Below are positions 31,577 to 32,116 of a stretch of 64,000 nt of DNA, piece after piece. The notes below the pieces were generated by a model. That model saw only the letters and a program-made list of their open reading frames with translations, did not search any database and was not told the DNA's origin. The translations under genes were made by a program, and so were the position numbers. Within the stretch, counting starts at the first letter, position 1; the number at the start of each line of letters is the position of its first letter. Origin of the DNA: Octopus vulgaris (Eukaryota). The DNA lies in the NCBI GenBank assembly GCA_951406725.2, contig OX597838.1, positions 5,208,001 to 5,272,000 on the forward strand, written 5' to 3'.

Positions 31577-32116
31577 TTAAGATTCGCAAAGAAATTTTTT
31601 CCGTCTTGTTTCGATATCATACGAGTTCTGCTGAATGAAAGAATCGCTTGAGAGAGTCTCCACGCCTGAGTCGGAGTAGCTTCCTTTGTCGGAGTCGTGA
31701 TCAGGCTTTGAAACACAATACTCACGTGCTGTATGATACGAATCGCCATCAGAAATGACTTTTATATTGGACTCTTGGGGAATATTTGGTTGAGAGATAC
31801 ACGATGTTTGTTGGAAGGAAACTATTTCTGTACTTACATCAGAAGCCATTTCATTGTCTTGTTCACCAGCAAAAATTGGTTCACTAACGGGGATCATCGG
31901 TTGGAAGGAAGCAGTTTGTGTGCAAGATTCTGAAATGCATGGTTTTACTGTCTCGTGATATTTGTTTAGGTCTAAACAAGGAATGATTTCTTCCTCCGAG
32001 ACAGCATTTTTCGAAATACAGCAACATAAGAAATAATCAAGGAAACACAACCTAAACTTAGAGGAAAAGTTGAACAGTTGTTTCTTGAAACTCTTCGATG
32101 TACGACCTGAGGGCAT
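31577..32116 (-). CDS. Probable coding exon: 179-aa uncharacterised protein with basic/Cys-cluster N-terminus and acidic Ser-rich body
   Basis: 192 open codons in non-repetitive AT-rich DNA; tataaaATG start; candidate splice acceptor at 32165-32166; conservatively diverged paralog fragment at 33067-33161. Confidence 0.6.
   Translation of the reverse strand: MPSGRTSKSFKKQLFNFSSKFRLCFLDYFLCCCISKNAVSEEEIIPCLDLNKYHETVKPCISESCTQTASFQPMIPVSEPIFAGEQDNEMASDVSTEIVSFQQTSCISQPNIPQESNIKVISDGDSYHTAREYCVSKPDHDSDKGSYSDSGVETLSSDSFIQQNSYDIETRRKKFLCES

What the first reader, a model, noticed from the sequence alone, without database searches (positions are those of the whole stretch)
31577..32116. Orphan 179-aa ORF with the motif set of a regulated ER membrane-contact tether
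Seen: this is the longest low-repeat ORF not explained by an element or microsatellite. It has a basic/aromatic N-terminus ending LCFLDYFLCCCISK (CCC at 32018-32026), then SDGD-SYHTARE (31721-31741), then SDSGVETLSS (DSGVET at 31655-31672). Established: Cys clusters beside basic-hydrophobic segments are typical S-palmitoylation anchors. FFAT motifs (EFFDAxE with an acidic flank; S/T at position 4 in phospho-FFAT) bind VAP on the ER. DSGxxS/T is the beta-TrCP degron, and DSGVETS occurs in NF-kB p105. Inference: a small, lineage-restricted, lipid-anchored protein with phospho-switched VAP binding and turnover. Short motifs can arise by chance, and protein-like text past the stop (KRRNRFQHLDNIEKSIVIDFREDPMYEK) means it could be a truncated longer gene.
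Basis: partly seen in the sequence, partly recalled or inferred. Interest (0 to 1): 0.72.

Follow-up and report, generated by a model that had tools for sequence, protein, structure and literature searches.

The report
Octopus-only motif-scaffold gene family
This is a real, conserved octopus gene, one of three related copies on one chromosome, whose small, probably unfolded protein likely hangs on a membrane by fatty-acid anchors and would use short docking motifs to grip the ER and other partners.

Summary
A 68%-identical orthologue keeps the same start, length (179 aa) and stop; neutral drift would do so in 55 of 3000 simulations. It is not a singleton: two paralogues lie 0.3 and 0.7 Mb away on the same contig, and each of the three has an O. 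bimaculoides orthologue. No relative outside octopuses appeared among 1.84 billion representatives. The phospho-FFAT scores 2.0 on the published matrix in this gene and its orthologue, but 5-5.5 in both paralogues, so VAP binding is plausible here, not family-wide. The paralogues also share a non-coding upstream block (CRE-like plus TTTCGAATTGAC). Verdict: an octopus-restricted, likely palmitoylated, disordered motif adaptor; the ER-tether role is untested (about 0.35). The proposed 32165 acceptor and longer-gene idea are not supported.

The parts
31577..32116 (-). Complete single-exon CDS, 179 aa (paralogue A of the family); ATG in AAAATG context
   Evidence: orthologue P0002 same start, length and stop
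32018..32089 (-). Basic/amphipathic N-terminal helix ending in CCC (aa 10-33); likely S-palmitoylated membrane anchor, too weakly hydrophobic for a transmembrane helix
   Evidence: helix 17-33 in a low-confidence AF2 model; hydrophobic moment 0.60 vs 0.20 mean elsewhere, best 19-aa Kyte-Doolittle 1.2 (0.7 in orthologue); CCC invariant
31973..31993 (-). Conserved EEIIPCL block (EIIP invariant in all paralogues); role unknown
31910..31936 (-). ISESCTQTA: TQT anchor of LC8 (dynein light chain) type; a second weaker copy SDVSTE[IT] at 31823-31846
   Evidence: TQT in 13 of 14 family proteins, AQT in P0003; motif rules from PMC6607443 passages
31721..31753 (-). SDGD-SYHTARE: phospho-FFAT-like motif with acidic flank, score 2.0
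   Evidence: matrix of PMC7705450 Table EV4 applied; orthologue SFCTANE also 2.0
31655..31672 (-). DSGVET: DSGxxT beta-TrCP-type phosphodegron candidate
   Evidence: identical in orthologue; DSGT[DE]S in paralogue B; DSD in C; DSGxxT works in Bora, PMC2287288 passages
32225..32308 (-). Non-coding block shared with both paralogues, with invariant 12-mer TTTCGAATTGAC at 32290-32301 (contains the CHR-type hexamer TTCGAA); promoter-proximal or 5'UTR element
   Evidence: 79% identity to paralogue B upstream; local scores 78 and 63 vs shuffle maxima 37 and 39 of 300; pattern built from the three matches only those three places in 2.8 Gb, control 1
32369..32375 (-). TACGTCA, CRE-like site kept upstream of all three paralogues
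33062..33161 (-). 100-bp degenerate partial duplicate of codons 36-71 (83% identity), no start, no CCC
25470..25703 (-). Stretch used as a second exon in the O. bimaculoides gene model P0003 (donor GAT|GTAAGT at codon 93/94); frame not conserved here; possible minor splice form or model artefact
30577..30582 (-). First AATAAA downstream of the stop; candidate polyadenylation signal
   Evidence: sequence scan only

Best explanation
This is a conserved, single-exon, octopus-restricted gene, one of three paralogues on one contig, whose protein is predicted to be a disordered adaptor, likely held on a membrane by an N-terminal helix and three palmitoylated cysteines. SHOWN: coding gene under constraint; three-member family; conserved CCC, TQT, S-[FY]-x-[ST]-A and DS(G) motifs; no folded domain, no transmembrane segment; shared upstream element. 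INFERRED, in order of falling confidence: (1) helix + CCC anchors it to the cytosolic face of a membrane; (2) LC8 binds the TQT and pairs two chains; (3) acid-directed kinases phosphorylate the S/D-rich tail; phospho-T129 switches on binding to the ER receptor VAP, so this paralogue bridges its membrane to the ER; (4) phosphorylation of DSGVET then hands it to SCF-beta-TrCP and ends the contact. Paralogue B would add PP1 docking (RVxF) to the same scaffold.
For: Orthologue P0002 (and cluster members P0004-6) 122/179 identical, same start and stop, no frameshift; neutral simulation keeps start+frame+stop in 55/3000 without indels and 0/3000 with 5% indels; changes are more conservative than neutral (6/500 reach it); all 14 motif residues kept in 1/500 open-frame simulations. 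Paralogues at C25:4566k and C25:4919k; tree gives three groups, each with an O. bimaculoides member. A-priori motif positions invariant across paralogues 7/11 vs 20/129 others, p=0.0009. Phospho-FFAT 2.0 in both A proteins although 3 of 7 core residues differ, all score-neutral. N-terminus net +5, tail net -14, 22% S/T. An unspliced 1248-nt contig of run X5 bridges 31135-32363; its repeat-to-unique depth ratio is about 6 against about 28,000-31,000 in the two genome-sized runs, so X5 is not whole-genome DNA and is likely RNA (inferred; its kind is not on record). An LC8 gene and a VAP-type MSP exon exist in the genome.
Against: No binding, lipidation or localisation data. Paralogues B and C score 5-5.5 at the homologous site, above the cut-off of 3, because the acid lies at position 6: the family-wide motif may serve another partner. 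About 10% of human proteins (2,079 of 20,373) score below 3 (PMC7705450), and 97/2000 shuffles of P0001 reach 2.0. The degron is DSD in paralogue C. T of TQT is A in the O. bimaculoides model, and the +2 residue here (A) is not the preferred P/D/E; many TQT peptides do not bind LC8 (PMC6607443). Only two distinct full-length A sequences are available, no DNA for dN/dS. The low AF2 confidence (pLDDT 45.5) came from a 4-row alignment and does not itself prove disorder.
Confidence: 0.4

Rival explanations
1. Membrane-anchored phospho-regulated adaptor, but not a VAP tether: the conserved S-x-x-x-S-[FY]-x-[ST]-A-E tract is a kinase/phosphatase or other docking site, and the family's job is to hold LC8/dynein and PP1 at a membrane.
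For: Family-wide consensus has E at position 6 in B and C and fails the matrix; TQT is in 13/14 proteins, more widely kept than a passing FFAT (5/14); RVxF is kept in all B proteins; B repeats the S-Y-H-T-V unit.
Against: Both A proteins keep the acid at position 7 and pass; changes between them fall at tolerated positions. RVxF is absent from A and C.
Confidence: 0.32
2. The N-terminus is a targeting signal (mitochondrial presequence-like) or the cysteines form disulfides or bind metal; the protein is a structural or organellar, perhaps sperm, protein and the acidic motifs are incidental.
For: First 27 residues of A: 6 K/R, 1-2 D/E, amphipathic; A has further cysteines.
Against: B has 4-5 acids in its first 27 residues yet keeps the same helix-CCC; motif positions are selectively invariant.
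Confidence: 0.14
3. The functional product is a spliced or longer form (as in the O. bimaculoides model P0003, or read-through past the stop), so the FFAT and degron are not in the main protein.
For: P0003 joins codon 93 (perfect GTAAGT donor) to a stretch at 25703 with a CAG acceptor, 78% identical over 50 aa; paralogue B has a short spliced last exon.
Against: The 3' half of the ORF is conserved to the stop in P0002 (28/34 in the last block); the downstream exon's frame differs between species; contigs of X4 and X5 cross the donor and 32165 with no joint listed (contigs drop rare variants); no longer relative in the length-free search.
Confidence: 0.08
4. Non-coding or transposon-derived chance ORF.
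For: AT-rich repeat-laden window; no Pfam, PDB or Atlas hit; paralogue C is frameshifted here and a broken partial copy lies 1 kb away.
Against: Only 3 DNA matches in 2.8 Gb; intact orthologue; three conserved paralogue groups; simulations.
Confidence: 0.03

Closest known systems
Uncharacterised Octopus proteins A0A0L8H8A8 (A), A0A0L8GX42 / XP_014777610 / XP_036354421 / CAI9740536 (B), A0A0L8GB72 (C)
   Same: True homologues: 78% to the N-terminal 93 aa of A0A0L8H8A8; about 28-44% local identity to B and C.
   Different: All unnamed; the A entry is a spliced model lacking the FFAT-like and DSG motifs; no paper names the six identifiers searched.
Phospho-FFAT VAP partners (STARD3, MIGA2, PTPIP51, Kv2.1/2.2, FIP200; PMC7705450)
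   Same: S/T at core position 4, acidic flank, score 2.0 within the 0-2.5 range of validated partners; membrane anchor plus switchable ER grip.
   Different: No sequence homology found; those partners mostly use transmembrane anchors and carry folded domains, this one has a predicted lipid anchor and no domain; paralogues fail the matrix.
Chlamydia IncV (PMC9286742, search listing and start of abstract only)
   Same: Works like it if the model holds: a pure, phospho-regulated FFAT tether without enzyme domain.
   Different: Bacterial, transmembrane, unrelated in sequence.
LC8 clients with TQT anchors (PMC6607443)
   Same: TQT in a low-complexity region with an H-bonding residue at -4; B and C have the preferred D at +2.
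   Different: Binding untested; A has A/T at +2; AQT in one orthologue.
beta-TrCP substrates with DSGxx[ST] degrons (Bora, PMC2287288; IkB, PMC6027159)
   Same: DSGVET matches Bora-type DSGxxT; B has canonical DSGxxS.
   Different: C has DSD; turnover untested.

Membership tests
Phospho-FFAT VAP partner | Matrix score below 3 with S/T at position 4 | tested here: met
   2.0 for P0001 and P0002/4/5/6; STARD3 control gives the published 2.5
Phospho-FFAT VAP partner | Motif conserved with a passing score across the family | tested here: not met
   homologous site scores 5 in B, 5-5.5 in C; 5 of 14 proteins pass
Phospho-FFAT VAP partner | Motif cytosolic and unstructured | tested here: inconclusive
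   no transmembrane-strength segment; AF2 coil at low confidence from a shallow alignment
Phospho-FFAT VAP partner | Phosphorylation-dependent binding to the VAP MSP domain | not testable with these tools
   needs a phosphopeptide; only single MSP exons are available from the genome
S-palmitoylated peripheral membrane protein | Conserved Cys cluster beside a basic/hydrophobic helix | tested here: met
   CCC in 13 of 14 proteins, the exception being an annotation that starts downstream; amphipathic N-terminus in 6 of 6 tested
S-palmitoylated peripheral membrane protein | Thioester-linked fatty acid on those cysteines | not testable with these tools
   bench assay
LC8 client | TQT anchor in a disordered region | tested here: met
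   13 of 14 proteins
LC8 client | Measured binding to LC8 | not testable with these tools
   bench assay; LC8Pred not available
beta-TrCP substrate | Conserved DSGxx[ST] | tested here: inconclusive
   11 of 14 proteins (groups A and B); DSD in group C; absent from spliced model P0003
Transposon ORF | Dispersed multi-copy DNA or element domains | tested here: not met
   3 DNA matches in the genome; no Pfam family at E<=10
Any described protein family | Profile or structural match | tested here: not met
   Pfam none for 6 family proteins; PDB best E 0.21; Atlas no usable hit; only octopus-type hits in 1.84e9 representatives plus one compositional S-layer hit at E 2e-4

The most novel reading that the evidence does not exclude
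Octopuses invented a family of domain-less, lipid-anchored, LC8-paired ER-contact tethers with a built-in on switch (phospho-FFAT) and off switch (phosphodegron), whose three copies diversified their docking motifs (VAP in A, PP1 in B) while keeping one CRE + CHR-type regulatory block, which would point to co-expression in one cell type such as the male germ line.
Probability: 0.13. Interest if true: 0.72.

Novelty: new variant of a known kind. Interest (0 to 1): 0.42.

Why it matters
Lineage-restricted genes rarely come with a readable mechanism. Here three paralogues and orthologues from several octopuses let short linear motifs be picked out by conservation, giving four cheap bench tests (palmitoylation, LC8, VAP, beta-TrCP). 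If they hold, it shows a membrane-contact regulator assembled from motifs alone, with no ancestral domain, and the shared upstream block offers a handle on octopus tissue-specific transcription. If not, it is still an unannotated real gene and a correction to the O. bimaculoides gene model.

Tried and rejected
Sequencing-run search: no RNA holder listed on record; 9 of 24 rows hold part of the stretch; no evidence either way on expression. Run X1 (RNA guessed) gave only short low-depth pieces; X9 covers parts only. Read laying covers 29400-32400 only, so an upstream exon and the 25.7-kb candidate exon were not examined. Complex prediction of the genome's LC8 (2 copies) with residues 52-86: no verdict, score 0.23 against a mark of 0.34, controls not folded; no evidence for or against. 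AF2 model too poor for a fold search. Pfam, PDB sequences, ESM Atlas (P0001, P0013) and phage tblastn: nothing usable. P0016 rejected as a compositional hit (bacterial S-layer protein); P0015 is a 57-residue exact piece of P0001 with an unrelated tail, not counted as a homologue. Third homologue search with the 7-row profile returned no new protein. RNA structure for the upstream block: -1.05 kcal/mol, 0 of 8 pairs covary; Rfam only sub-threshold hits on an AT microsatellite. Text past the stop: no family match. Literature: six identifiers, 0 papers; three searches on octopus orphan/testis/tissue-specific genes gave nothing on this family in the listings; the one supplement of PMC11202624 holds no LOC-type identifiers, so its silence is uninformative. 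dN/dS not computed: orthologues are available as protein only; of two listed differences inside the ORF one is silent and one is R22K (table was cut). Earlier findings were not available.

Full report
Observation. The minus-strand frame 31577-32116 gives a 179-aa protein, P0001. The window lies on contig C25 of a 2.8-Gb genome; a paralogue found below contains a named Octopus vulgaris protein letter for letter over 323 residues, so this is an octopus. The ORF region is nearly unique: 1.1 kb around it has 3 DNA matches in the genome, namely itself, a 100-bp partial duplicate at 33062-33161 and 84 bp upstream of a paralogue. It is not a transposon frame. The only other ATG ORF of equal length overlaps a dispersed repeat.

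It is a real gene. The protein search returned P0002 (179 aa, 68% identical, full coverage; cluster of 4 from short contigs of 0.9-1.3 kb) and O. bimaculoides A0A0L8H8A8 (P0003). P0002 starts and stops at the same codons (...KKF[LI]CES*). Mutating the ORF at random down to 68% identity kept start, open frame and stop in 55 of 3000 runs without indels and in 0 of 3000 when 5% of events were indels (my assumption: three quarters of them shift the frame); observed replacements are more conservative than neutral ones (mean BLOSUM -0.05 vs -0.55 +/- 0.21; 6 of 500 reach it). So the 'truncated longer gene' worry fails: the stop is old, the text beyond lies behind two stops and matches no family member. 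In laid contigs the 31135-32363 stretch differs from the window at 6-8 places against 23-24 in the 553 bases at 29400-29952, in line with constraint.

Transcription. One 1248-nt contig of run X5 bridges 31135-32363 with no joint, across both the proposed 32165 acceptor and the internal donor. X5's kind is not on record; its contigs total 68 Mb and its repeat-to-unique depth ratio is about 6, against about 28,000 and 31,000 in the two genome-sized runs, so it is not whole-genome DNA and is likely RNA (inference). Contigs give no strand, start or level, and drop rare splice forms.

It is a family. tblastn in the own genome found paralogue B (385-aa open frame, C25:4566k, P0007) and C (C25:4919k, P0008); a profile search added B and C entries from O. 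bimaculoides, O. sinensis and an unnamed source. A tree of 9 rows gives three groups (A 100/99, C 100/99, B 89/94), each holding an O. bimaculoides sequence (P0004-6, P0009, P0011 left out as near-copies), so the duplications predate that split. C carries two frameshifts here relative to its orthologue. HMMER over 1.84 billion representatives gave 6 hits at E<=0.001: four family members, one exact fragment and one bacterial S-layer protein matched by composition. Fast-evolving disordered proteins can lose detectable homology, so 'octopus-restricted' means 'no relative detected'.

Anatomy. Residues 1-30 are basic (net +5) and amphipathic, residues 31-33 are CCC, and the rest is acidic (net -14), 22% S/T, without a transmembrane-strength segment. 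AF2 shows one helix (17-33) and coil, at pLDDT 45.5 from 4 rows. TQT, which I added after seeing the alignment, is in 13 of 14 proteins (these 14 are three groups, not independent). LC8 clients are anchored by TQT, prefer an H-bonding residue at -4 and P/D/E at +2, and many TQT peptides do not bind (PMC6607443, passages): B and C fit better (STQTD) than A (CTQTA).

The FFAT question. With the published matrix (PMC7705450, passages and Table EV4; control reproduces 2.5), SYHTARE scores 2.0 and the orthologue's SFCTANE also 2.0, three core changes all being score-neutral. But 97 of 2000 shuffles reach 2.0, a tenth of human proteins score under 3, and the homologous SF Y[TS]AE[PL] sites of B and C score 5-5.5. 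The tract is clearly selected; that its partner is VAP is supported for A only. DSGVET is of the DSGxxT type shown to work in Bora (PMC2287288, passages), B has canonical DSGxxS, C has DSD. B alone has RVxF matches in all its members (the PP1 reading of RVxF is recalled). The genome encodes LC8 and a VAP-type MSP exon.

Shared regulation. Although their proteins are about 30% alike, the three paralogues keep a non-coding block: TACGTCA about 255 bases and TTTCGAATTGAC about 185 bases before the ATG in A. Local alignment scores are 78 (A-B) and 63 (A-C) against shuffle maxima of 37 and 39; B-C (36) does not exceed its null (37). A pattern made from the three finds only them in 2.8 Gb (by construction it finds them; control 1). 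No RNA structure is supported. TTCGAA is one of the three commonest CHR sites bound by DREAM in mammals and lies near start sites (PMC4176359, passages); a paralogous complex drives fly spermatocyte genes (PMC7197356, abstract and outline only). The CRE label is recalled. Germ-line expression is therefore a lead, not a result.

The other gene model. P0003 leaves the frame at codon 93, where the D-V-S-T codons spell a perfect donor, and continues in a stretch at 25703-25470. Its frame is not conserved here and it would drop the best-conserved C-terminal block, so I read it as a minor form or a model artefact.

Verdict. A real, unannotated member of an undescribed octopus gene family (no paper names the six identifiers searched; the library lacks most subscription journals, and unseen supplements could list these genes). 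It most likely works like a lipid-anchored short-motif adaptor (about 0.7 including rival 1); the specific phospho-switched ER tether with timed destruction is my best single mechanism at about 0.4, all binding steps being inferred. It is not a member of any described family by sequence. Interest 0.42.

Noticed in passing
G000:C25:4919.2-4919.9k (L008:1306-1974, -): Paralogue C has two frameshifts and an early stop relative to O. bimaculoides A0A0L8GB72 while keeping its upstream element: recent truncation/pseudogene or assembly error.
   Followed up: partly
G000:C25:4566.3-4567.4k (L005:1465-2592, +) and L022:6858-6890: Paralogue B has up to three RVxF matches, a second S-Y-H-T-V unit, a conserved acidic tail PWPDDFRDFEEIDL and an 11-codon last exon about 6.8 kb downstream; the O. 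vulgaris entry starts after the CCC and so misses the anchor.
   Followed up: partly
window 33062-33161: Degenerate 100-bp duplicate of codons 36-71, 1 kb upstream of the gene, same strand.
   Followed up: partly
window 25210-25740: Single-copy stretch that is 78% identical at protein level to the second exon of the O. bimaculoides model; flanked by microsatellites.
   Followed up: partly
window 32151 (-): Out-of-frame upstream ATG in weak context opening a 59-codon frame that overlaps the start of the gene; a second 2-codon uORF at 32213.
   Followed up: no
G000:C25:23627337-23627588 (L025:1489-1758): Intronless full-length LC8/dynein light chain ORF (89 aa) on the same contig.
   Followed up: partly
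window 17813-18280, 35442-35792, 47680-47991 (-): Frames that read like decayed LINE and mariner-type fragments (recalled resemblance); Pfam gave no family at E<=0.1.
   Followed up: partly
window 30006-30308: High-copy SINE-like repeat downstream of the gene (depth tens of thousands of times the unique level in genome-sized runs).
   Followed up: no
window 39496-41266: 1.77-kb (TAA)n microsatellite, unusually long.
   Followed up: no
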